Made by a program: the position numbers and the translations under genes. A model generated the notes under the pieces. That model was not told where the DNA came from. It ran no database searches and saw nothing but the letters and a program-made list of their open reading frames with translations. A stretch of DNA of 64,000 nt from Limnothrix sp. BL-A-16 (GTDB lineage: Bacteria > Cyanobacteriota > Cyanobacteriia > CACIAM-69d), in NCBI GenBank assembly GCA_041937175.2, contig CP166615.1, forward strand, positions 3,008,001 to 3,072,000, written 5' to 3'. Position 1 is the first letter of the stretch. Every line of letters starts with the position of its first letter. Below are positions 1-7,685 of the stretch, piece by piece.

Positions 1-822
1 TACAAAAACCCGGCTACGGGCAAATACATCGCCCCGTCCGATGTGGACTTCAGCGATCCCAGCCAGCCAAAAGACCCGACCACGGGCGATCTGCTGGTGT
101 CGGTCTACGAAAAAATGTCCAAGTCCAAATACAACGGCGTTGATCCCGAGGGCGTGCTGGCCAAATACGGCGCGGACACCTCGCGGATGTTTGTGCTGTT
201 CAAAGCGCCGCCAGAAAAGGATTTGGAGTGGGATGATGCGGATGTGGAAGGGCAATTCCGCTTCCTAAATCGGGTTTGGCGGTTGGTGAGCAACTACCTG
301 GAAGCCCAAGTTGGCGAGGAGATCGCCCCCGATCCGAAAGCCGAAAAAGACCTGCGCCGCGCCATCCATATCGCCATCAAAGAAGTCTCGGAAGATTTGG
401 CCGAAGACTATCAATTGAACACGGCCATTTCTGAGTTGATGAAACTCAGCAACGCCCTGAACGATTACACCAACAAAACCACGCCGGTTTTCGCGGAAGG
501 GATTCAAACCCTGGTGTTGTTGCTGGCTCCCTTTGCGCCCCATTTAACCGAGGAATTGTGGGGGGCGATCGGGCAGTCTGGCTCGGTGCATACCGCCACT
601 TGGCCGGCCTTGGATGAATCCGCGTTGGTGGCCGATGAGGTGACGATCGTGATTCAAATCAAGGGCAAAACACGCGGCACGATCCAAGTTCCGGCCGGCA
701 CGGACAAGGACACCCTAGAACAGCTCGCCCTCAACAGCGATGTAGCCCAAAAGCACATTGCCGGACAGGAGGTGAAAAAGGCGATCGTCGTCCCCGGCAA
801 ACTGGTGAACTTCGTGGTGTAG
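1..822 (+). CDS. leuS: Leucyl-tRNA synthetase, C-terminal part (5' truncated by the window edge)
   Basis: Frame open from base 1. KMSKS class I signature ([13 protein letters not shown]), [32 protein letters not shown]-terminal [12 protein letters not shown]. Confidence 0.97.
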
Positions 823-838
823 TGCTGACCGCAACGCT

Positions 839-1309
839 ATGCTGAATGTATCGAGTCAAAACTTGAGGCACGCATACAAAACGCACGTCAAGTGCCTCAA
901 GTCTTGTGCCAATCCTAATCATCCATCACTAGATCTTATTCGCTTCTATGCTGCTGAGTGTGGACTCAAATACCTAGTGATGCACAAAGAAAGTCTAAGC
1001 AATACAAATCAAATCCAGGAGCGTGATCGTAATGATCGTAAAAAGCATCCAGTACTAACCCATGATCTACCTGGCATCATCAAGTTTCTAGGCATTTCAG
1101 TCCATGATTTAGGTGGGCTATCTTCACCTCAACCGTGCGTCTTGGTTGAGGGAAATCGGAAGACTATATCAGTGAAAGATGCACATGAAGCCTTGCGCTA
1201 CGGGATTGACTTTTTACCTGACACAAATTTAACCTGTGCAAGTTCTCGACAGACCCTAGTTGATTGGCTAGACAAAATCTTGCAGTACCTTCATAGTCAG
1301 ATTAGATGA
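839..1309 (+). CDS. Small HEPN-like protein (156 aa), possible effector of a defence/conflict module
   Basis: ATG 16 bp after the leuS stop. Motifs FYAAECGLK ... THDL ... HEALRYG parallel the E..LK / HDL / RY pattern of classical HEPN domains. AT-rich. Confidence 0.6.
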   Translation: MLNVSSQNLRHAYKTHVKCLKSCANPNHPSLDLIRFYAAECGLKYLVMHKESLSNTNQIQERDRNDRKKHPVLTHDLPGIIKFLGISVHDLGGLSSPQPCVLVEGNRKTISVKDAHEALRYGIDFLPDTNLTCASSRQTLVDWLDKILQYLHSQIR

Positions 1310-1324
1310 GATCAATTATTACCT

Positions 1325-4177
1325 ATGTTGCCATCAGGATCGCGCCTTTACACATGGGTTGATGTTGAGGATGTATTCCTCAAAATTCGCGCTGGCAAAG
1401 ATCCAAATCAGCATTGGCCGCCAGAATTGCTATGGGCTAATGCCTCTCGCAGCAGTCTTGACTTAGGCATCAAGCCCGGTAGTTATCGTGCAATTCAAAC
1501 TTGGTTGGAACAGTTATTTGAAGCCCGCTTGACCAAAACTTCTGATGATCAATTAATGATTCGTCTAGAGTCTTTAATCGAATTACCACGCAATCTACCT
1601 ATTTTTGTAGAAGAGGATGACGATGATCAGTTGTCTAAAAACCAACTTACACCACAGTTATCGCACCCTTCAACGATTTTCGCAGTTGATAGAGAGAGCT
1701 TAGATCAACCTGAGGCTCCTGCGCCTTTGGATGAAAAATATCCACCGATTTTTGCATTTCATTCTTTCAAGGGTGGTGTTGGGAGAACAACCCATGCAAT
1801 GGCGTTTTCAGAGAAGTTATTGGATGAATTGAAAAATGCAGACGATAGTTTTTTAGTGATCGATGCAGATTTAGAAGCACCAGGGATTAGTTGGATTTTT
1901 GATGGATTGTTGGGTGAGCCATCTGTCTCTTTTGCAGACTTGCTAGCCTTGGCACATGAGGATAGCTCAGATCAATACCAAACAACAATTGACTTAGTTG
2001 CCAACCGCCTATCTGCTCAAAGAGTTGATCGGCTCTTTGTCATGCCTGTTTTTCGGCAAATCGGACAGTTAAACACCGCAGAAATTCTGCCGCAGCACTT
2101 TATCCGAGGCAGTCAAAATCCATTTAGCTTGACAGACTTGATTAGTCATGTTGGCTGGGTCTTGGGAGTCAGAGCAATCATTATCGATCTGAGAGCTGGG
2201 CTAACCGAGCTTTCATCAGCATTCCTGCTCGATCCTCGAATTTACCGAGTCTTTGTGACAACACTTAGTCAGCAGTCGATATTAGGAACCTGTAGCTTAT
2301 TACGCCTCATTGGTGATCGCTCACCGAATTTTCGAGAATGCGACATAATGCCCCAGGTTATTCTTTCTCAATTACCCATTGATCGACAAGGACTTGAGCA
2401 AATCAAGCAAGAAGCAGAACAAGCTTTAACAGACGCAGCGGCTCAACTCATCGATAGTCGAGATACCAATCAGGAAGAGTTCAGTAGTGATGAGTACTCC
2501 GCTATTGCTGCCGAAAATCTCACCGAAGTTGTCAAAATCACACCGACATATCACTCAGAAAGCCTACAGATTCAACCCAATCATTGGACAGAGCTAAAGC
2601 CACTGCTCCAATTGTTTAATCTCAATTCATCCTGGGAGATACTTCTAGATGCTGTTCGAGGCAGAGTTAGCACCCTAGAAGTATCTTCTAATACATCTGA
2701 ACTATCTGACAGTACAAAGACAAATGAACAACGACAAAAGCTGGCTGAAGCAGCCAAGAAAATGATTTTTGCAGAAAATGCAGAAAGTGATCGATTTTTG
2801 CCAACCAATGCATTACATAATCTTGCCTCTAGTTATTCTAAGCAAGCACCAATTGAAGTCATCATTGGTTCTAAGGGATCTGGAAAAACCTATACATTTT
2901 TGCAAGTTATCCGTTGTCAAACCTGGGCTAGGTTTATTCAGGAAACTAATGATGATTCACAAGTTAATATTCAATGTTCAATTGGGATTGTCCTACATTC
3001 TGGAAATCTTTCAGATCAAGCTAAACGGCTAGTATCTGCATGTAAGATATATGCTTTAAATCATTTATCCTTACCTCATTCCAGACCAGTTAACCATCTA
3101 ACTCAAGGTCAAACCAGGGATATAAATGTCTATGCAGCAGAAAAGATTCGGGGATGGCTACGGGGAAATTTAACTGAGTCTGAGTGGATTGATTGTTGGC
3201 TAGACCTAATGGCATGGCAACTTGATTTTAATTCTGGAGTTACCGGTGCTGGTCGCTCCCTCATTAATGCTCTACTCGAAAAACGACAGTCAGTAATTAT
3301 GCTGTTCGATGGGCTAGAAGATATTTTCCAAGAAATTGGCCAGAATCCTGCACAACAGACGGCTCTTAGGTCTCTTCTGCAATCAGTGCCTGAATGGTTA
3401 AGTCAGTATCCTGCACGTCCTCTTGGTGTTTTGATTTTCGTGCGATCCGATTTTGTGAAATTAGTCATCAAACAAAACTTAGAGCAATTCCGAACTCGTT
3501 ATGATCGCTATGCATTGCGCTGGGGGTTAACCGAAGCCCTTCAACTAGTGCTTTGGGTTTGCTCAGTTTCAGAGGTGATCGAGGACAGTCCGAAATCAAT
3601 TCAAGCAATGACAAATCAGCAAGAATTGATCACAAAATTAGAATTCTTGTGGGGTAAACTAGTCGGTTCTGCAAAATCAAGAGAGGCAACTTCTTGGAAA
3701 TTTGTCCTTGCTGCTTTGTGCGACTTTAATATCCAAATCCAATCTCGTGATTTAGTCAGATTTTTGCATGAATCTGCCAAGGATTCCTATGAAAATACTA
3801 AATATTGCGAACAGGAGATATACTTTGATCGCTTGCTCGTCCCGGGTGCAATGCGTGATGCCCTGAGTAAATGTGCATATGACAAAATCAACGAAATTAT
3901 TCAAGAAAACCCATCTCTAGACACAATTTTTTCAAAGTTGAGGGATCTTGACCAAATCAAGAAAAAAGTACCCTTTAATCGAGAGGACTTGGAACTAACT
4001 ACAGATGAAGTCAAGTCTCTCGAAATAGAGGGTGCAGTGTTCCGGGATCCAAAATCTGGTTATTATTGGCTAACGGAAATGCTTCGGCTAGGGTTGGGGT
4101 TTACAAATGCTAAAGGTGGGCGATCTCCATTTCTAGGACTTTGGCAAAAAGCACTTAAAAGAAGTGGCTTAGCCTAA
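1325..4177 (+). CDS. 950-aa double P-loop NTPase: ParA/MinD-like domain with variant Walker A (KGGVGRTT) fused to a second ATPase (GSKGSGKT / IMLFDGLED)
   Basis: FHSFKGGVGRTT, LVIDADLEAPG and IIIDLRAG are ParA/MinD-like motifs. Second Walker A VIIGSKGSGKT with Walker B IMLFDGLED. Starts 15 bp after the upstream gene. Confidence 0.85.
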   Translation: MLPSGSRLYTWVDVEDVFLKIRAGKDPNQHWPPELLWANASRSSLDLGIKPGSYRAIQTWLEQLFEARLTKTSDDQLMIRLESLIELPRNLPIFVEEDDDDQLSKNQLTPQLSHPSTIFAVDRESLDQPEAPAPLDEKYPPIFAFHSFKGGVGRTTHAMAFSEKLLDELKNADDSFLVIDADLEAPGISWIFDGLLGEPSVSFADLLALAHEDSSDQYQTTIDLVANRLSAQRVDRLFVMPVFRQIGQLNTAEILPQHFIRGSQNPFSLTDLISHVGWVLGVRAIIIDLRAGLTELSSAFLLDPRIYRVFVTTLSQQSILGTCSLLRLIGDRSPNFRECDIMPQVILSQLPIDRQGLEQIKQEAEQALTDAAAQLIDSRDTNQEEFSSDEYSAIAAENLTEVVKITPTYHSESLQIQPNHWTELKPLLQLFNLNSSWEILLDAVRGRVSTLEVSSNTSELSDSTKTNEQRQKLAEAAKKMIFAENAESDRFLPTNALHNLASSYSKQAPIEVIIGSKGSGKTYTFLQVIRCQTWARFIQETNDDSQVNIQCSIGIVLHSGNLSDQAKRLVSACKIYALNHLSLPHSRPVNHLTQGQTRDINVYAAEKIRGWLRGNLTESEWIDCWLDLMAWQLDFNSGVTGAGRSLINALLEKRQSVIMLFDGLEDIFQEIGQNPAQQTALRSLLQSVPEWLSQYPARPLGVLIFVRSDFVKLVIKQNLEQFRTRYDRYALRWGLTEALQLVLWVCSVSEVIEDSPKSIQAMTNQQELITKLEFLWGKLVGSAKSREATSWKFVLAALCDFNIQIQSRDLVRFLHESAKDSYENTKYCEQEIYFDRLLVPGAMRDALSKCAYDKINEIIQENPSLDTIFSKLRDLDQIKKKVPFNREDLELTTDEVKSLEIEGAVFRDPKSGYYWLTEMLRLGLGFTNAKGGRSPFLGLWQKALKRSGLA

Positions 4178-4330
4178 AGTGGTTTATATTCTTAAATCAC
4201 ATCGCGAAGTTTCAGATTTGTCGACATCGACAACTTATCGAGGATGCGATTCACCGTCTTTATTCAGCTTCCGCCCTCTCTTTGCAGCAATTGTCTGCAA
4301 CCTTTCGGAGGGGTGATCTGATTAGTCAGT

Positions 4331-4363
4331 TAGCCGACTTTTAGACTGGGTTTCAGTCGGTTA
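4331..4363. terminator. Hairpin between convergent genes, possible terminator
   Basis: TAGCCGACT (4331-4339) pairs with AGTCGGTTA (4355-4363), one G-U pair. No strong U-tract. Confidence 0.35.
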
Positions 4364-4447
4364 TTGATTGCACCCTTCTATTTTTGAGTGTTGCCCAAAT
4401 GCTTCGTTGGTTCTGCCCAGCAACCAGCCCAGCTTTGCATGATTGGG

Positions 4448-4990
4448 TTAGTGGCTGGCGGGTCGGGTGGGTTCGAGGCCGAGGGACGCTTCGAGGGCGA
4501 TGAGTTCGTCGCGGTGGGCCTTGACCCAGAGCCGGGCGATCGCCCCTTGATCGTTGGTTTCGAGCTGCAATTGCACTTGTTCGGTGCGCTGGGCTTTGCG
4601 TTGATAGAACCAACCGGCGGCCGGGGCCAAGAGGACGAGGGCTAATCCAGCATTCTGGATTTGGGGAATGGTCATGGACAAAACGAGGCCCAGACAAAGC
4701 AACCCACCGGCCGCGAGGATGCTGAGGAAGATGGCCAAGGTGGGGCTGGCGGCCACCAAACCTTCAAAGGTGACGCGATCGTTGTCTGCATCCCGATTCA
4801 CCAAGCGATACGATCGCCCTGAGAAGTAGCCTCGGAGCCGATCGCGCAGTTCGGTTTCCGGGATGGTTTCGGGGACGTAGCAAGCCAGTTCCGTGCGGTC
4901 TTTGGCGGAAGCGCGGATGAAGAAAACCAGGCCAATTAACATCAACACCGTCAAGAACAGCGTGGACGAGACAACGACATCGTTGGACAT
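4448..4990 (-). CDS. ccb1: Cofactor assembly of complex C subunit B (CCB1/DUF3529), heme ci maturation of cytochrome b6
   Basis: STLFLTVLMLIGLVFFIRASAKDRTE and C-terminal KAHRDELIAL are typical of CCB1. Start moved to ATG 4990. Confidence 0.8.
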   Translation of the reverse strand: MSNDVVVSSTLFLTVLMLIGLVFFIRASAKDRTELACYVPETIPETELRDRLRGYFSGRSYRLVNRDADNDRVTFEGLVAASPTLAIFLSILAAGGLLCLGLVLSMTIPQIQNAGLALVLLAPAAGWFYQRKAQRTEQVQLQLETNDQGAIARLWVKAHRDELIALEASLGLEPTRPASH

Positions 4991-5132
4991 GGCGAGTGAC
5001 GGGAGGTGGGGCAATGGTGGTGAAGGGAGGCACTGGGCTGGTGGTGTTCCCTGAGGCTACTGCAACAATTAGTTACAAACCCAGCTCCCATCAGCATATC
5101 GGACTCGGGGCCGCGCGATCGAGCATGTTAAG

Positions 5133-5750
5133 GTGATCAGTCGTGTCCGCTCCCAGCCCACCGTGGTTAGCCAAGTTGAACGCATTGCCCGCCTGATGGG
5201 TCGCACCAGCACCATCAGCTTTTGGATCCAAATTTTTCTTGGGGTGATCGGCAGTATTCTACTGTTGCTGACCACGCCCATGCTGTTTGCACGCACCAGC
5301 CCCACGCCCGGGGCAGTTCCGGTGGGGCCGGGCCCGGGTTCGATCGGGGGGTTGGCGGTGGCTGTGGTGGCGATGCTGACTTTGCTGGCCAGCATCTATT
5401 ACACCTTCACCAACACGCAACATGCACGGCGGCTCCAGGCTCCGAAAAACGCCCGACCGTCCAAGGCTGATACCCTCAAGCGTCTCCGGCTGGGGGTTTT
5501 GATTAATCTGTTTGGTTTGGGGTTGGCGCTGGTGGGGGCGGAGGCCGTGACGGGCCAGCTCACGAATAAGCTATTGATGCAAAGCAGTCCGTTTAATTTG
5601 GGCTTTGTGGATCCGAGTCGCTTTATTCAAGCGTTGGATGTGTTTGTGGTGTTGGGGAATACCCACGGAATGTTTGCCCATTTTTGCAATTTGACGGCCA
5701 ATCTTTGGTTGATCGATCGCATCAGCAAGGCTGGATCCGGTGGCGATTGA
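5133..5750 (+). CDS. DUF3611 family membrane protein
   Basis: ISFWIQIFLGVIG, RPSKADT, GVLINLFG, ALDVFVVLGNTHGMFAHF. Several TM helices. Confidence 0.8.
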   Translation: MISRVRSQPTVVSQVERIARLMGRTSTISFWIQIFLGVIGSILLLLTTPMLFARTSPTPGAVPVGPGPGSIGGLAVAVVAMLTLLASIYYTFTNTQHARRLQAPKNARPSKADTLKRLRLGVLINLFGLGLALVGAEAVTGQLTNKLLMQSSPFNLGFVDPSRFIQALDVFVVLGNTHGMFAHFCNLTANLWLIDRISKAGSGGD

Positions 5751-5764
5751 AGCGATCGCCCTGA

Positions 5765-5895
5765 GAGGATGTCTGAAAGGCCAAAATTGCTACTCTGTCC
5801 GCTCTAGTGCTCGACGTAGACAAGGGGCTTGAGCATCTTGCCCCCACAACTATTGGTGTTTGGCACAGGCCAAAAGATACTTTTCAAACATCCTC
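5765..5895. mobile_element. MITE-like element (131 bp) with 16-bp TIRs, TGA target duplication and an internal degenerate REP-like palindrome
   Basis: Left GAGGATGTCTGAAAGG (5765-5780) vs right CTTTTCAAACATCCTC (5880-5895), 14/16 inverted match. TGA on both flanks (5762-5764, 5896-5898). GACAAGGGGCTTGAGCATCTTGCCCC at 5819-5844. Confidence 0.75.
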
Positions 5896-6008
5896 TGAAA
5901 GGGACTGTCTATTTCAAAGCTGAATTTCAAAGTTGATCTTCAAAAATCCCCCTCCTAAAAAACAGCTACACCCAAAAACAGTTAATCAATTCCAACGGAG
6001 CTATACCC

Positions 6009-6674
6009 ATGTCGATCGCCCCTTCTCCTGAGCTGTCCTCCGATTTGTCTCCTGATCTGTCGCAACTGATCCGGGCGGTGGATGAGGCGGACTCAGTGGC
6101 CAAAATGGTTGGCGCGGTGCGATCGCTCGCGGCGGCTCAGGATCCGGCGGCGATTCCTACCCTGATGGCCGTGTTGGGATACAACAACCCCGGGGCAGCG
6201 GTGGCAGCGGTGGAAGGGCTGGTGGCCCTGGGGGAAGCGGCGGTGGGGCCAATTTTAGCCCAGGTGGATGGCTACAACTACACGGCGCGGGCTTGGGCCT
6301 TGCGGGCGCTGGCCCAAATTGCCGACCCTCGGGCTTTGGAACTGTTGTTGGCGGCGGCTGAAACGGACTTTGCGCCCAGTGTGCGGCGGGCAGCGGCCCA
6401 AGGGTTGGGGGCGTTGCGTTGGGCACGAATGGCGGCGGAGCAAGTGCCGATGGCGCGAGATCGGGTGTTGGCGGTCTTGACGGTGAATGCAACGGATTTG
6501 GAATGGGTGGTGCGCTACGCGGCGATCGCGGGGCTGGAGGGGCTGGCGCAATCGCAACCGGCGCTGGGCGATCGCGTGTTAGGTTTGTTACGCGATCGGG
6601 CGACTGCTGATACGGATCTAGTGGTGCGGCTGCGGGCCCAATGGGCGATCGAGCAGTTGGCGGCCAAGGGCTGA
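6009..6674 (+). CDS. cpcF: Phycocyanin alpha-subunit phycocyanobilin lyase, CpcF subunit (HEAT-like repeats)
   Basis: AIPTLMAVLGYNNPGAAVAAVEGL, DGYNYTARAWALRALA, DFAPSVRRAAAQGLG, EWVVRYAAIAGL. Confidence 0.9.
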   Translation: MSIAPSPELSSDLSPDLSQLIRAVDEADSVAKMVGAVRSLAAAQDPAAIPTLMAVLGYNNPGAAVAAVEGLVALGEAAVGPILAQVDGYNYTARAWALRALAQIADPRALELLLAAAETDFAPSVRRAAAQGLGALRWARMAAEQVPMARDRVLAVLTVNATDLEWVVRYAAIAGLEGLAQSQPALGDRVLGLLRDRATADTDLVVRLRAQWAIEQLAAKG

Positions 6675-6906
6675 CCCAGCACGCGATCGTTTCGTTAGCA
6701 CCCTGTTAATCACCACTCGTTAACCATCCATGAGTTAACTAGCAAGTTAACTAGCGAGTTAACGACCCGCAACCCACAAGCTCATTGGCCCATCCACAGG
6801 CTGCGGGTCAAAAACCACTCAATTGAACGGTCGCAACCGTAGCCTTGCCCCTTTGGCCCCCGGGATAGACTATGGGAAATCTTCAGGGGCCGCCGAGTGA
6901 GCGAAG

Positions 6907-7398
6907 ATGAATTTTCGCGATTTTCCTGCATTTCGAGACCTGACCGCTGAGCAATTTCAGCGATTTCTCTCCTCCTGCCAGTCGGGCACTATCCCAGCCG
7001 ATCGCACCATCATCCACCAGGGAAAACCCGGCAGCCACATCTTCTTCCTGTCCAGCGGTCAGGTTCGCATCACCTTAAACACTGACTTGGGTGAACGGGA
7101 ATTGAATGTGCTGTCGGCTCCCACGATTTTGGGCGAAATTAGTTTTTTCAGTGGCGAGCTGAGTTCCGCCAATGTGACCACGGCCACGGACGTTTCCGCG
7201 ATCGCCATTGGGTTCAACACGTTGCGGGCCCGGCTCTATGGCGGCGATGCGGCCTGTGCCATCGTGACCCTCCATTTGGCTTCCACCATTGCCGAACGGG
7301 CCGCCCACATGACCCAAAAGGTTGTGGACTTTTATGGTCACCAAGCGGAGATCCAAAACACAACCCACAATCTCTTTGGCGAATGGAGTTTTCTTTAA
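6907..7398 (+). CDS. Stand-alone cyclic-nucleotide-binding (Crp-like) domain protein without HTH
   Basis: IIHQGKPGSHIFFLSSGQVRI ... LGEISFFSGELSSANV cNMP-binding barrel, 163 aa. Confidence 0.8.
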   Translation: MNFRDFPAFRDLTAEQFQRFLSSCQSGTIPADRTIIHQGKPGSHIFFLSSGQVRITLNTDLGERELNVLSAPTILGEISFFSGELSSANVTTATDVSAIAIGFNTLRARLYGGDAACAIVTLHLASTIAERAAHMTQKVVDFYGHQAEIQNTTHNLFGEWSFL

Positions 7399-7685
7399 AC
7401 CGGCAATCGCAAAACAGGCGATCGCGGTCAATAGTCAGATCACAGCCCCGAAAAGCAGTGCATTTCGACGCTGTTTCCACCAACGCCTAGTAGTAGGATT
7501 GGAGCTTTCCGGGGCGCGGCTCGATCGGGAGACTTGCCGTTGGCGACGGCACAGCGGGAGCCAGCCCCTTGGGTTAGCCGTGGCTCCCAGGCTGTTGGCT
7601 GCTTGCCCTGGCCCGATCGCCCCATCACAACAGCCCCGTACCAAGCCCCATCACCCAACTCCAAATTTCTTGGAAATATCGTTTT

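What the first reader, a model, noticed from the sequence alone, without database searches (positions are those of the whole stretch)
839..4177. Candidate undescribed defence/conflict module: small HEPN-like gene plus a ParA-like(KGGVGR)-ATPase double NTPase
Seen: two tightly coupled genes (15-bp gap). The first has the HEPN-type motifs YAAECGLK / THDL / LRYG. The second carries a ParA/MinD-like domain and a second intact P-loop ATPase, with no recognisable nuclease, TM segment or ParB partner. Established: HEPN domains are common RNase effectors in toxin-antitoxin and anti-phage systems, and NTPase-plus-effector gene pairs are a recurring defence architecture. Inference: the large protein is a two-NTPase sensor/switch that restrains or activates the HEPN protein. 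I do not recognise this pair as a named system.
Basis: partly seen in the sequence, partly recalled or inferred. Interest (0 to 1): 0.85.

Follow-up and report, generated by a model that had tools for sequence, protein, structure and literature searches.

The report
HEPN plus ParA-like double-ATPase defence pair
This is a real, widely conserved two-gene module, a small HEPN-type predicted RNase followed by a large protein with three nucleotide-binding-type domains; it is a predicted but untested anti-virus system that had already been catalogued and recently named.

Summary
The small gene is at 839-1309 (156 aa) and the large gene at 1325-4177 (950 aa), 15 nt apart, and all quoted motifs are present.

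The pair is a conserved operon. A relative of the small protein lies directly upstream of the large gene in 75 of 80 loci from many phyla.

- The small protein models confidently (pLDDT 95), and its best structural matches are HEPN domains (Z 7.8-5.3).
- Its ECGLK, THDL and RYG motifs parallel those of canonical Pfam HEPN proteins.

The pair is not undescribed. It matches PADLOC candidate PDC-M28. It also fits, feature by feature, the fused form of the "HINPO" system named in an October 2026 bioRxiv preprint. Neither has experimental support.

The module is a 3.4-kb low-GC cargo (0.42 against 0.56). It sits in a variable site between leuS and a CCB1-family gene. A same-genus genome, and co-occurring lake-metagenome variants, carry an AbiU/AIPR abortive-infection gene there instead.

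A second, divergent copy lies elsewhere in the same genome.

Verdict: a new member of a known, computationally defined kind, of moderate interest.

The parts
823..4235 (.). Variable low-GC cargo segment between the leuS stop codon and the CCB1-family gene region
   Evidence: Homology to same-genus genome G002 ends at 822 and resumes at 4236. GC is 0.419 against 0.561 on both flanks. Metagenome contigs diverge at the same two points.
839..1309 (+). Small gene, 156 aa: HEPN-fold protein and predicted RNase effector (PA-HEPN1-like / PDC-M28A-like)
   Evidence: ORF. AF2 model with pLDDT 95 and pTM 0.90. HEPN structures head the VIA list, Z 7.8-5.3. PDC-M28A E=0.02.
956..970 (+). ECGLK: the Ex3K motif in predicted helix 2 (E40, K44)
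   Evidence: E40 is in 102 of 102 and K44 in 101 of 102 family members. Anantharaman 2013 describes Ex3[KR] in HEPN helix-2.
1058..1069 (+). THDL motif (H75 invariant)
   Evidence: H75 is in 102 of 102 members. The same THDL motif occurs in canonical PF05168 HEPN proteins of related genomes, and hhalign aligns it.
1184..1204 (+). HEALRYG: H116-x3-R120-Y121-G122 at the end of predicted helix 112-121
   Evidence: R120 and Y121 are in 102 of 102 and H116 in 98 of 102 members. This is the position of the HEPN arginine motif, at the end of helix-3. There is no canonical Rx4-6H.
1325..4177 (+). Large gene, 950 aa: NTase-like domain + ParA-like ATPase + AAA+ ATPase
1325..1624 (+). N-terminal domain (aa 1-100) with a Pol-beta-type nucleotidyltransferase-like fold; no GS or DxD signature seen
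   Evidence: AF2 pLDDT 81.8. 36 of 50 VIA rows are nucleotidyltransferases, best Z 6.6. Its conserved columns do not include the G-S...D-x-D columns that are invariant in MNTs.
1742..2524 (+). ParA/MinD-like SIMIBI ATPase domain (aa ~140-400). Walker A KGGVGRT at 1769-1789, DADLEAPG at 1862-1885, DLRAG at 2186-2200.
   Evidence: NF047398 AAA_KGGVGR 9.7e-41 over aa 140-328. PDB ParA/Soj/MinD/ArsA sequence matches. Invariant K149, G150-R154, D180, D182, E184-G187 and D288-R290 in 107 sequences.
2822..4174 (+). C-terminal P-loop ATPase of the Sll1717 / STAND-ORC-like kind (aa ~500-950). Walker A GSKGSGKT at 2867-2890, Walker B DGLED at 3308-3322.
   Evidence: NF047389 scores 62.8 bits, below its cut-off of 75. 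Weak nSTAND1/NACHT hits. NACHT in 21 of 23 and nSTAND1 in 20 of 23 relatives. PDC-M28C in 19 of 23 relatives. Atlas neighbours are Sll1717, ORC-CDC6-like and nSTAND1 clusters.

Best explanation
The two genes form a horizontally acquired, two-gene version of the HINPO / PADLOC PDC-M28 conflict system.

Shown here:
- The upstream gene encodes a HEPN-fold protein. It has a fully conserved Ex3K motif, a conserved His in THDL, and HxxxRYG.
- The downstream gene fuses three domains: a nucleotidyltransferase-like domain without the catalytic signature, a ParA-type ATPase whose P-loop lysine is replaced by arginine (KGGVGR), and a STAND/ORC-like AAA+ ATPase with intact Walker A and B motifs.
- The pair is a near-obligate operon across bacteria and some archaea.
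- It sits in a variable chromosomal site that holds an abortive-infection gene in close relatives.

Inferred:
- The large protein is the sensor and switch. The AAA+ and/or NTase-like domains would detect invader DNA or nucleotides.
- Nucleotide-dependent dimerisation or multimerisation of the ParA-like domain would transmit the signal.
- The HEPN protein would then be released or activated to cut RNA, stopping the infected cell by abortive infection or dormancy.
For: Operon and conservation:
- Operon structure.
- 75 of 80 related loci carry a small-protein homologue directly upstream. It was 69 of 80 with the narrower profile, often with a 4-nt overlap.
- All nucleotide-binding motifs are invariant in 107 sequences.

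HEPN identity of the small protein:
- AF2 pLDDT 95.
- VIA hits: 1wol Z 7.8, 1ufb 7.5, Csm6 7.3, 2hsb 7.0, 4nqf 6.8, sacsin HEPN 6.7, HEPN toxins 7ae2 5.6 and 8xdj 5.5.
- Invariant E40, H75, R120 and Y121.
- hhalign against canonical PF05168 HEPNs gives P=9.7e-4.

Domains of the large protein:
- ParA-like domain: NF047398 9.7e-41.
- NTase-like fold: 36 of 50 VIA rows, best Z 6.6.
- AAA+ domain.

Match to catalogued systems:
- PDC-M28B 2.7e-15 and PDC-M28A 0.02 for the window proteins.
- Relatives hit M28B in 23 of 23 and M28C in 19 of 23.
- The description in preprint section 22 matches feature by feature.

Defence context:
- The cargo at 823-4235 has GC 0.419 against 0.561.
- None of 40 related genomes has a match at E<=1e-10.
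- Same-genus genome G002 has an AIPR/AbiU gene at the same site (Pfam 1.1e-51, PADLOC AbiU 2.7e-42).
- Lake metagenomes hold both variants.
Against: - No experiment exists for this family. Full-text searches found only the computational preprint.
- The structural matches are moderate. All Z values are under 8, a range the tool warns can reflect common helical arrangements. Foldseek found nothing at E<=1e-3.
- Pfam does not recognise the small protein. Only 2 of 102 relatives touch PF05168 weakly.
- The canonical HEPN Rx4-6H motif is absent, so RNase activity is not assured.
- The window's large protein does not hit PDC-M28C at E<=1 and is below the NCBIfam Sll1717 cut-off.
- No defence island surrounds the locus. 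The neighbours are housekeeping genes.
- Binding between the two proteins could not be tested.
Confidence: 0.7

Rival explanations
1. The pair is mainly a toxin-antitoxin or addiction module. The HEPN protein would be a toxin held in check by the large protein, and the pair would stabilise itself or its genomic island rather than defend against phages.
For: HEPN proteins paired with Pol-beta nucleotidyltransferases are established toxin-antitoxin pairs, and Anantharaman 2013 proposed a HEPN-ParA/Soj dyad as a toxin-antitoxin system (passages). Here a HEPN gene sits next to an NTase-like domain. Gene coupling is tight.
Against: The gene order is reversed compared with MNT-HEPN pairs, since HEPN is upstream here. 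The NTase-like domain shows no profile similarity to MNTs (hhalign P=0.5) and lacks their invariant GS and DxD columns. A 950-aa protein with two intact ATPases is far more than an antitoxin needs. Swapping with AbiU at one site points to defence.
Confidence: 0.13
2. The ParA-like polymer is the real effector and the HEPN protein is an accessory. The AAA+ domain would bind invader DNA and seed ParA assemblies that block replication or packaging. HEPN would act only as a backup, or as a non-catalytic RNA-binding subunit. This is close to the model the preprint prefers.
For: Preprint section 22 proposes this, with HEPN as a 'backup effector'. The canonical Rx4-6H motif is absent. The ParA signature lysine K149 and all dimer-type motifs are invariant.
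Against: E40, K44, H75, H116, R120 and Y121 are invariant or nearly so in 102 sequences. This fits a catalytic site of the alternative-histidine kind described for HEPN-T and AbiV. The HEPN gene is almost never lost (75 of 80 loci), which is unexpected for a dispensable backup.
Confidence: 0.13
3. It is a housekeeping positioning or partition system, a ParA-type ATPase with an adaptor, and is unrelated to conflict.
For: There is weak sequence similarity to ParA, Soj and MinD. Databases annotate relatives as ParA or MinD-like proteins.
Against: There is no ParB or other conserved partner. The P-loop lysine is replaced by arginine. None of 40 related genomes has a match at E<=1e-10. The cargo is low-GC in a variable site. 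The locus is allelic with AbiU.
Confidence: 0.03

Closest known systems
[quoted passage not shown] Li, Burroughs & Aravind, bioRxiv 10.64898/2026.10.19.760177, dated 2026-10-22.
   Same: An upstream HEPN gene. A ParA with arginine in place of the Walker A lysine and a PG motif (DADLEAPG). An N-terminal Pol-beta-like NTase-fold domain. An ORC/CDC6-STAND-like AAA+ ATPase that the preprint says is 'in several cases' fused to the ParA protein. Relatives are concentrated in filamentous cyanobacteria, Chloroflexota, Desulfobacterota and Methanothrix.
   Different: Nothing defining differs. This is the fused two-gene form. I could not check against the preprint's own alignments or accession lists. 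The N-terminal domain is called 'rapidly evolving' there but is fairly conserved within this fused subfamily (56% mean column identity).
PADLOC-DB v2.0.0 candidate system PDC-M28 (models PDLC04557-04561: A, B, C)
   Same: The window's large protein hits PDC-M28B at 2.7e-15 and the small one hits PDC-M28A at 0.02. Relatives hit B in 23 of 23 and C in 19 of 23. The second copy in this genome hits A at 3.9e-6, B at 1.3e-38 and C at 1.1e-21.
   Different: PDC-M28 is modelled as three separate proteins, with B profiles of 438 and 327 positions and a C profile of 480. Here B and C are fused. The window copy is divergent: A is only marginal and there is no hit to C at E<=1. No paper text mentioning PDC-M28 was found.
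HEPN-MNT (type VII) toxin-antitoxin pairs and the Pfam HEPN family PF05168
   Same: A HEPN fold next to a Pol-beta-type NTase fold. The motif triad E-K helix / THDL / RY[PG] is shared with canonical PF05168 proteins from related cyanobacteria. hhalign gives P=9.7e-4.
   Different: The NTase-like domain lacks the GS and DxD columns and shows no profile similarity to MNTs. The gene order is reversed. Two ATPase domains are added. The small protein does not reach the Pfam threshold.
HEPN (MAE_18760 family) - ParA/Soj dyad noted by Anantharaman et al. 2013 (PMC3710099, passages read)
   Same: A HEPN gene in an operon with a SIMIBI ParA/Soj-like ATPase, predicted to be a toxin plus a regulator.
   Different: That family keeps Rx4-6H, and its ATPase occupies the 5' position. 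Here the motif is non-canonical and HEPN is 5'. Relatedness of the two was not tested.

Membership tests
HINPO system (preprint 10.64898/2026.10.19.760177) | Upstream gene encoding a HEPN-fold protein (PA-HEPN1) | tested here: met
   AF2 pLDDT 95. HEPN structures dominate the VIA list: 1wol Z 7.8 / rmsd 4.5 / 105 aligned, 2hsb 7.0, 4nqf 6.8, 3o10 6.7, 7ae2 5.6. Motifs. hhalign P=9.7e-4.
HINPO system (preprint 10.64898/2026.10.19.760177) | ParA of the 'ConB2' kind: arginine instead of the Walker A lysine, and a PG motif after sensor-1 | tested here: met
   KGGVGRT at aa 149-155 and DADLEAPG at aa 180-187, invariant in 107 sequences. NF047398 9.7e-41. Placement in their tree was not tested.
HINPO system (preprint 10.64898/2026.10.19.760177) | N-terminal Pol-beta-like nucleotidyltransferase-fold domain | tested here: met
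   Model pLDDT 81.8. 36 of 50 VIA rows are Pol-beta-superfamily NTases, by my reading of their titles. Best is 6fgk at Z 6.6 / rmsd 6.4 / 98 aligned. Z values are moderate, and Foldseek gave nothing at E<=1e-3.
HINPO system (preprint 10.64898/2026.10.19.760177) | That NTase domain is catalytically inactive | tested here: inconclusive
   The conserved columns of 41 sequences include no G[GS] or strand DxD like those invariant in MNTs. However, conserved acidic residues exist (D13, E15, D43, E82, E96, E97), and no superposition could be made.
HINPO system (preprint 10.64898/2026.10.19.760177) | ORC-CDC6/STAND-clade AAA+ ATPase, downstream or fused | tested here: met
   Fused at aa ~500-950. Sub-threshold nSTAND1 (1.5e-4) and NACHT (5.8e-4) hits. 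NACHT in 21 of 23, nSTAND1 in 20 of 23, AAA_22 in 16 of 23 relatives. Atlas neighbours include ORC-CDC6-like (13% of a cluster) and nSTAND1 (19%).
HINPO system (preprint 10.64898/2026.10.19.760177) | Conserved gene neighbourhood | tested here: met
   75 of 80 loci. Of the 5 misses, 2 have no upstream sequence.
HINPO system (preprint 10.64898/2026.10.19.760177) | Enrichment in multicellular prokaryotes | tested here: inconclusive
   Of the 80 best loci, 41 are cyanobacteria (mostly filamentous genera by name), 12 Acidobacteriota, 6 Chloroflexota, 6 Desulfobacterota, and 5 archaea (4 Methanothrix/Methanotrichaceae, 1 Methanogenium). The list is ranked by similarity to a cyanobacterial query, and no statistical test was done.
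PADLOC PDC-M28 | Hits to the A, B and C models | tested here: inconclusive
   Window proteins: B 2.7e-15, A 0.02, C no hit at E<=1. Relatives: B 23 of 23 and C 19 of 23; A 15 of 102 at E<=0.01. The second genomic copy hits all three.
HEPN superfamily (Anantharaman et al. 2013) | [quoted passage not shown] | tested here: met
   Model helices are 6-22, 29-50, 112-121 and 137-154. The insert spans 51-111 and contains helices 56-66 and 77-83 and a hairpin at 99-109. Fold matches.
HEPN superfamily (Anantharaman et al. 2013) | Rx4-6H motif at the end of helix 3 | tested here: not met
   R120 is invariant at the end of helix 112-121, but no His follows it. Conserved His residues lie upstream: H116 in 98 of 102 and H75 in 102 of 102. 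The paper describes such alternative-His variants for the HEPN-T (2hsb) and AbiV families.
HEPN superfamily (Anantharaman et al. 2013) | Ex3[KR] motif in helix 2 | tested here: met
   E40-C-G-L-K44, with E in 102 of 102 and K in 101 of 102.
Pfam HEPN PF05168 | Score above the gathering threshold | tested here: not met
   No hit for the window protein at E<=1. 2 of 102 relatives hit, best E 0.0051.
HEPN-MNT toxin-antitoxin | Active minimal nucleotidyltransferase partner (GS...DxD), encoded upstream | tested here: not met
   hhalign of the N-terminal domain against 16 MNTs gives P=0.5. The signature columns are absent. HEPN is upstream here.
ParABS partition system | ParB partner and the canonical KGGxxK[ST] Walker A | tested here: not met
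   No conserved third gene in 80 loci. The Walker A is KGGVGR.

The most novel reading that the evidence does not exclude
The module may be a captured HEPN-nucleotidyltransferase toxin-antitoxin pair. On this reading, the catalytically dead NTase-like domain at the N-terminus of the large protein is the docking and silencing site for the HEPN-T-like RNase. Two serial NTPase switches, the arginine-variant ParA and the STAND/ORC-like AAA+, would decide when the RNase is let go.

This differs from the preprint's proposal, in which the NTase-like domain is a nucleotide sensor and HEPN is a mere backup effector.

Leads in favour: the small protein's nearest structural and motif relatives are the nucleotidyltransferase-associated HEPN families.

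Against: there is no sequence-profile signal linking the N-terminal domain to MNTs.
Probability: 0.2. Interest if true: 0.55.

Novelty: new member of a known kind. Interest (0 to 1): 0.35.

Why it matters
HINPO/PDC-M28 is one of many predicted ParA-based immune systems for which there is no experimental evidence. This window offers three things that make it testable:

- A compact, intact two-gene version with every conserved motif in place.
- A second, divergent copy in the same genome for comparison.
- A natural site where the module and an AbiU/AIPR gene replace each other, within one genus and within lake populations. This is independent contextual support for a defence role.

The work here also links two names for one thing. 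The PADLOC candidate PDC-M28 and the preprint's HINPO describe the same system, and the preprint's main text mentions neither PADLOC nor PDC (0 occurrences).

If the system works as proposed, it would show how a ParA-type ATPase with an arginine P-loop and a STAND-like ATPase jointly gate an RNase.

Tried and rejected
- First search for related loci with the single protein: 36 pattern matches, none confirmed. It succeeded with an alignment.
- Profile searches of solved structures by sequence. For the small protein there was nothing meaningful (best E 0.048, mS34). For the large protein only the ParA part matched.
- Foldseek against PDB for both models: no match at E<=1e-3. For the N-terminal domain the top rows were complex I 30-kDa subunits and Pol beta/lambda/X, at E 0.02-0.15.
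- hhalign of the small-protein family against a mixed set of 22 PF05168 HEPNs gave only P=0.013 over 33 columns. Against the 9 of the THDL subtype it gave P=9.7e-4 over 45 columns, with probability only 22%.
- hhalign of the N-terminal domain against 16 MNTs: P=0.5, so no support for descent from MNT.
- Search for a conserved third gene in the 80 loci: none. The apparent small-large 'fusion' in L038 is a frameshift in the small gene.
- Promoter and terminator scan of 500-4700: counts no higher than in shuffles, so uninformative.
- Literature: 'PDC-M28' 0 papers; 'KGGVGR' 1 unrelated paper; 'Sll1717' 0; 'HINPO' only the preprint plus one unrelated old scan.
- Earlier findings of this scan: nothing.
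- RNA evidence: one metatranscriptome holds a 252-nt contig at 999-1250, inside the small gene, at depth 2.1. DNA carry-over cannot be excluded, so this does not show transcription.
- Housekeeping ParA reading: rejected (see rival explanations).


Full report
**Observation**

The window holds two same-strand ORFs, 839..1309 (156 aa) and 1325..4177 (950 aa), separated by 15 nt.
- ECGLK at 956-970
- THDL at 1058-1069
- HEALRYG at 1184-1204
- KGGVGRT at 1769-1789
- GSKGSGKT at 2867-2890
- DGLED at 3308-3322

The upstream neighbour is the 3' end of a leucyl-tRNA synthetase gene that stops at 822. That name is my reading of the translation; no tool named it. The downstream neighbour on the opposite strand is a CCB1-family gene (Pfam 2e-61).

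**The genes are real and form a conserved pair**

- The large protein has at least 310 relatives of similar length at E<=1e-3. The best 120 cover 98-100% of it, mostly at 37-44% identity and three at 82-99%.
- A profile of the small protein and its four closest relatives finds 302 cluster representatives at E<=1e-3 in an exhaustive HMMER search, mostly 130-150 aa.
- A scan of one genome per species found 264 loci encoding a relative of the large protein, and the best 80 were kept.
- With the narrow profile, an ORF matching the small protein ends at the start of the large gene in 69 of 80 loci, frequently with a 4-nt overlap.
- With a broader 102-sequence profile searched over six-frame pieces, the figure is 75 of 80.
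- The five misses are L035, L059, L068, L070 and L077. L059 and L070 have no upstream sequence.
- Several loci carry frameshifted small genes (L005, L038, L053, L069).
- All-against-all clustering of the other ORFs in the 80 loci found no conserved third gene.

**The small protein is a HEPN-fold protein**

Pfam and NCBIfam do not recognise it. AlphaFold2 with 102 sequences gives a confident model (pLDDT 95.0, pTM 0.90). The model has helices 6-22, 29-50, 112-121 and 137-154, and an insert between the second and third that contains two short helices and a hairpin.

Foldseek against PDB gives nothing at E<=1e-3, although HEPN entries recur among the weak rows.

The full VIA search of 48,161 chains is headed by HEPN proteins:

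| Entry | Description | Z |
|---|---|---|
| 1wol | HEPN homologue (rmsd 4.5, 105 aligned) | 7.8 |
| 1ufb | | 7.5 |
| 8jbc | Csm6, residues 290-447 | 7.3 |
| 2hsb | HEPN | 7.0 |
| 4nqf | HEPN | 6.8 |
| 3o10 | sacsin HEPN | 6.7 |
| 6tug | Csm6 | 6.0 |
| 8oz7 | AbiA C-terminus | 6.0 |
| 7ae2 | HEPN toxin | 5.6 |
| 8xdj | HEPN toxin | 5.5 |
| 1jog | | 5.4 |
| 9bj5 | AbiV | 4.8 |

All Z values are below 8, which the tool warns can be a common arrangement for helical proteins. The weight therefore lies in the consistency of the list, not in any single score.

**Motifs of the small protein**

In 102 family members:

| Residue | Members with it |
|---|---|
| Y37, E40, H75, R120, Y121 | 102 of 102 |
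| K44 | 101 of 102 |
| G42 | 99 of 102 |
| H116 | 98 of 102 |

Anantharaman et al. 2013 (PMC3710099; passages read) make three relevant points:
- The HEPN arginine motif sits at the end of helix 3.
- An Ex3[KR] motif sits in helix 2.
- Families such as HEPN-T (2hsb) and AbiV lack the His of Rx4-6H but have an alternative conserved His upstream.

The present protein fits that variant. It has E40-x3-K44 in helix 2, R120 at the end of helix 112-121, and His at 116 and 75. It has no canonical Rx4-6H.

Canonical PF05168 HEPN genes taken from related cyanobacterial genomes show the same triad: a Q-x-x-E-K helix, THDL and RYP. Profile-profile comparison with nine of them gives P=9.7e-4 over 45 columns spanning helix 2 to THDL. 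With a mixed set of 22 the value is P=0.013. A language-model neighbour search also returned a cluster in which 12% of members carry PF05168.

**The large protein has three domains**

*(i) Residues 1-100, the NTase-like domain.* These fold with pLDDT 81.8. Of the 50 best VIA rows, 36 are Pol-beta-superfamily nucleotidyltransferases, by my reading of their titles. They include small alarmone synthetases (6fgk Z 6.6, 5dec 6.1), CD-NTases, cGAS-like receptors, MenT toxins, and Pol X/beta. Foldseek is not significant. The conserved columns of 41 sequences do not include the G-S and D-x-D columns that are invariant in 16 genuine MNTs. This fits an inactive enzyme, but I could not superpose structures.

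*(ii) Residues ~140-400, the ParA/MinD-type ATPase.*
- NCBIfam 'KGGVGR-motif variant AAA ATPase' scores 9.7e-41.
- PDB sequence hits are to ParA-like PF-32, ArsA, Soj and MinD.
- K149, GGVGR154, D180, D182, EAPG184-187 and DLR288-290 are invariant in 107 sequences.

*(iii) Residues ~500-950, the second P-loop ATPase.*
- NCBIfam 'Sll1717 family' scores 62.8 bits, against a cut-off of 75.
- There are weak nSTAND1 and NACHT hits.
- At E<=0.01, NACHT hits 21 of 23 relatives, nSTAND1 20 of 23, AAA_22 and nSTAND5 16 of 23 each, and AAA_16 14 of 23.
- Atlas neighbours are Sll1717-family clusters, and clusters in which 13% of members carry ORC-CDC6-like or 19% carry nSTAND1.
- Walker A (G515, K517, G518, G520-T522) and Walker B (D662, G663, E665) are invariant or nearly so.
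- The last ~70 residues look to me like a winged-helix segment. That is an untested impression.

**It is already catalogued and named**

*PADLOC.*
- PADLOC-DB v2.0.0 models of candidate system PDC-M28 match the window proteins: B at 2.7e-15 (residues 76-391) and A at 0.02.
- Among 23 relatives of the large protein, 23 hit B and 19 hit C.
- Among 102 relatives of the small protein, 15 hit A at E<=0.01.

*The HINPO preprint.* A full-text search led to Li, Burroughs & Aravind (bioRxiv 10.64898/2026.10.19.760177, dated 2026-10-22). I saw the listing, the outline and abstract, passages, and sections 22 and 18 in full.

Section 22 defines the HINPO system as follows:
- An upstream, previously uncharacterised HEPN (PA-HEPN1).
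- A ParA of their ConB2 branch. Another section says this branch has arginine in place of the Walker A lysine and a PG motif after sensor-1.
- An N-terminal inactive Pol-beta-like nucleotidyltransferase domain.
- An ORC-CDC6/STAND AAA+ ATPase, downstream or directly fused.
- Enrichment in multicellular bacteria.

Every one of these features that I could test is met here (see Membership tests). The preprint is purely computational. Its main text does not mention PADLOC or PDC, so the equivalence of PDC-M28 and HINPO is a link made here.

*Other searches.* Full-text searches for 'PDC-M28', 'KGGVGR' and 'Sll1717' found nothing relevant. Shorter proteins of about 390-450 aa covering 37-45% of the query occur on long contigs. 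This is consistent with the split three-gene form, though some may be fragments.

**Genomic context supports a mobile defence cargo**

- Composition drops to about 0.39-0.46 GC across the pair. The cargo at 823-4235 has GC 0.419 against 0.561 on both sides.
- Among 40 related genomes (2 same genus, 5 same family, the rest same class), none has a match to the large protein at E<=1e-10.
- In same-genus genome G002, the leuS end and the downstream region lie on one contig. Homology to the window stops exactly at 822 and resumes at 4236.
- The 1.9 kb between them in G002 encodes a 569-aa protein matching Pfam AIPR (1.1e-51) and PADLOC AbiU (2.7e-42).
- The module occurs in lake and freshwater metagenomes: 16 rows in 16 studies hold part of the stretch, and 6 hold at least half of its words.
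- In run X1 a 3,459-nt contig spans 795-4253 with 33 differences. In X1, X3 and X5 other contigs leave the window sequence at 822 and enter it at 4236.
- By my manual count, the loose-end consensus of those contigs agrees with the G002 AbiU-cargo junctions at 29 of 30 and 27 of 30 positions. Both cargos therefore coexist in natural populations at the same site.
- The immediate neighbours are housekeeping genes, so this is a single-cassette hotspot rather than a large defence island.

**A second copy**

The same genome carries another module of the same architecture at about G000:C1:1867270-1870430. It has a 147-aa small gene and an 898-aa large gene with FKGGVGRTT and GRKGTGKT. It is only 26-28% identical to the window copy in the ATPase domains.

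This copy hits PDC-M28A at 3.9e-6, B at 1.3e-38 and C at 1.1e-21. Its lineage is found at full length in 5 of 40 related genomes, at 78%, 45%, 32%, 32% and 30% identity.

**Mechanism**

*Shown:* the domain make-up, conservation of the putative catalytic and nucleotide-binding residues, obligate gene pairing, and mobile or variable context.

[quoted passage not shown] The preprint proposes that the AAA+ part binds invader DNA and seeds ParA assemblies, that the NTase-like domain senses nucleotides, and that HEPN is a backup effector.

I favour a model in which HEPN is the principal effector, gated by the large protein, for two reasons. The HEPN gene is retained in nearly all loci, and its active-site-like residues are invariant.

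A bolder variant is that the dead NTase domain is the HEPN docking site, inherited from a HEPN-nucleotidyltransferase pair. The affinity of the small protein for NTase-associated HEPN families supports this. The lack of any profile signal to MNTs (P=0.5) does not.

**Verdict**

This is an intact, fused, two-gene member of the HINPO/PDC-M28 family, which is computationally defined and experimentally untested. Interest is moderate. Its value lies in being a compact test case with a natural allelic exchange against AbiU and a paralogous copy in the same genome.

Noticed in passing
own genome G000:C1:~1867270-1870430 (L082: small gene 673-1116, large gene from 1138; L091): A second, divergent module of the same architecture: a 147-aa HEPN-like gene plus an 898-aa KGGVGR/AAA+ gene, directly after what looks like the 3' end of a CobN/Mg-chelatase-like gene. 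It hits PDC-M28A, B and C. Its lineage is found at full length in 5 of 40 related genomes.
   Followed up: partly
L090 (G002:C39:31100-33300), ORF 80-1789 on the minus strand: In a same-genus genome, the leuS-adjacent site holds a 569-aa AIPR/AbiU-type abortive-infection gene instead of the module. Lake metagenome contigs show this alternative junction too.
   Followed up: yes
window ~5750-5800: A ~40-nt element beside a GCGATCGC (HIP1-like) palindrome matches dozens of places in the two same-genus genomes, at 84-100% identity over 23-50 nt. It is probably a dispersed short repeat.
   Followed up: no
L002 (Arthrospira platensis PCC 7345), 5001-7643: The large gene is broken into at least three ORFs (5001-5831, 5886-6383, 6603-7643). 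It is likely a pseudogene or an assembly error.
   Followed up: no
L036 and L072 (contigs of one Actinomycetota MAG): Two separate copies of the module occur in one metagenome-assembled genome, echoing the two copies in the window's genome.
   Followed up: no
relatives of the large protein (alignment A2): 16 of 23 also hit the PADLOC model 'mad8' (best 2.3e-06). The shared region was not examined.
   Followed up: no
own genome G000:C1:3614673-3615008 (L103) and 2142000-2142335 (L116): Two canonical PF05168 HEPN genes. The L103 gene has an in-frame TAA. The L116 gene has an upstream MNT-type gene with the GS...DxD signature.
   Followed up: partly
L003, L004, L009, L020, L022, L023 and three further loci, just downstream of the large gene on the opposite strand: A ~690-726-aa ORF (177 aa in L022) recurs in 9 cyanobacterial loci. 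It is probably local synteny and was not identified.
   Followed up: no
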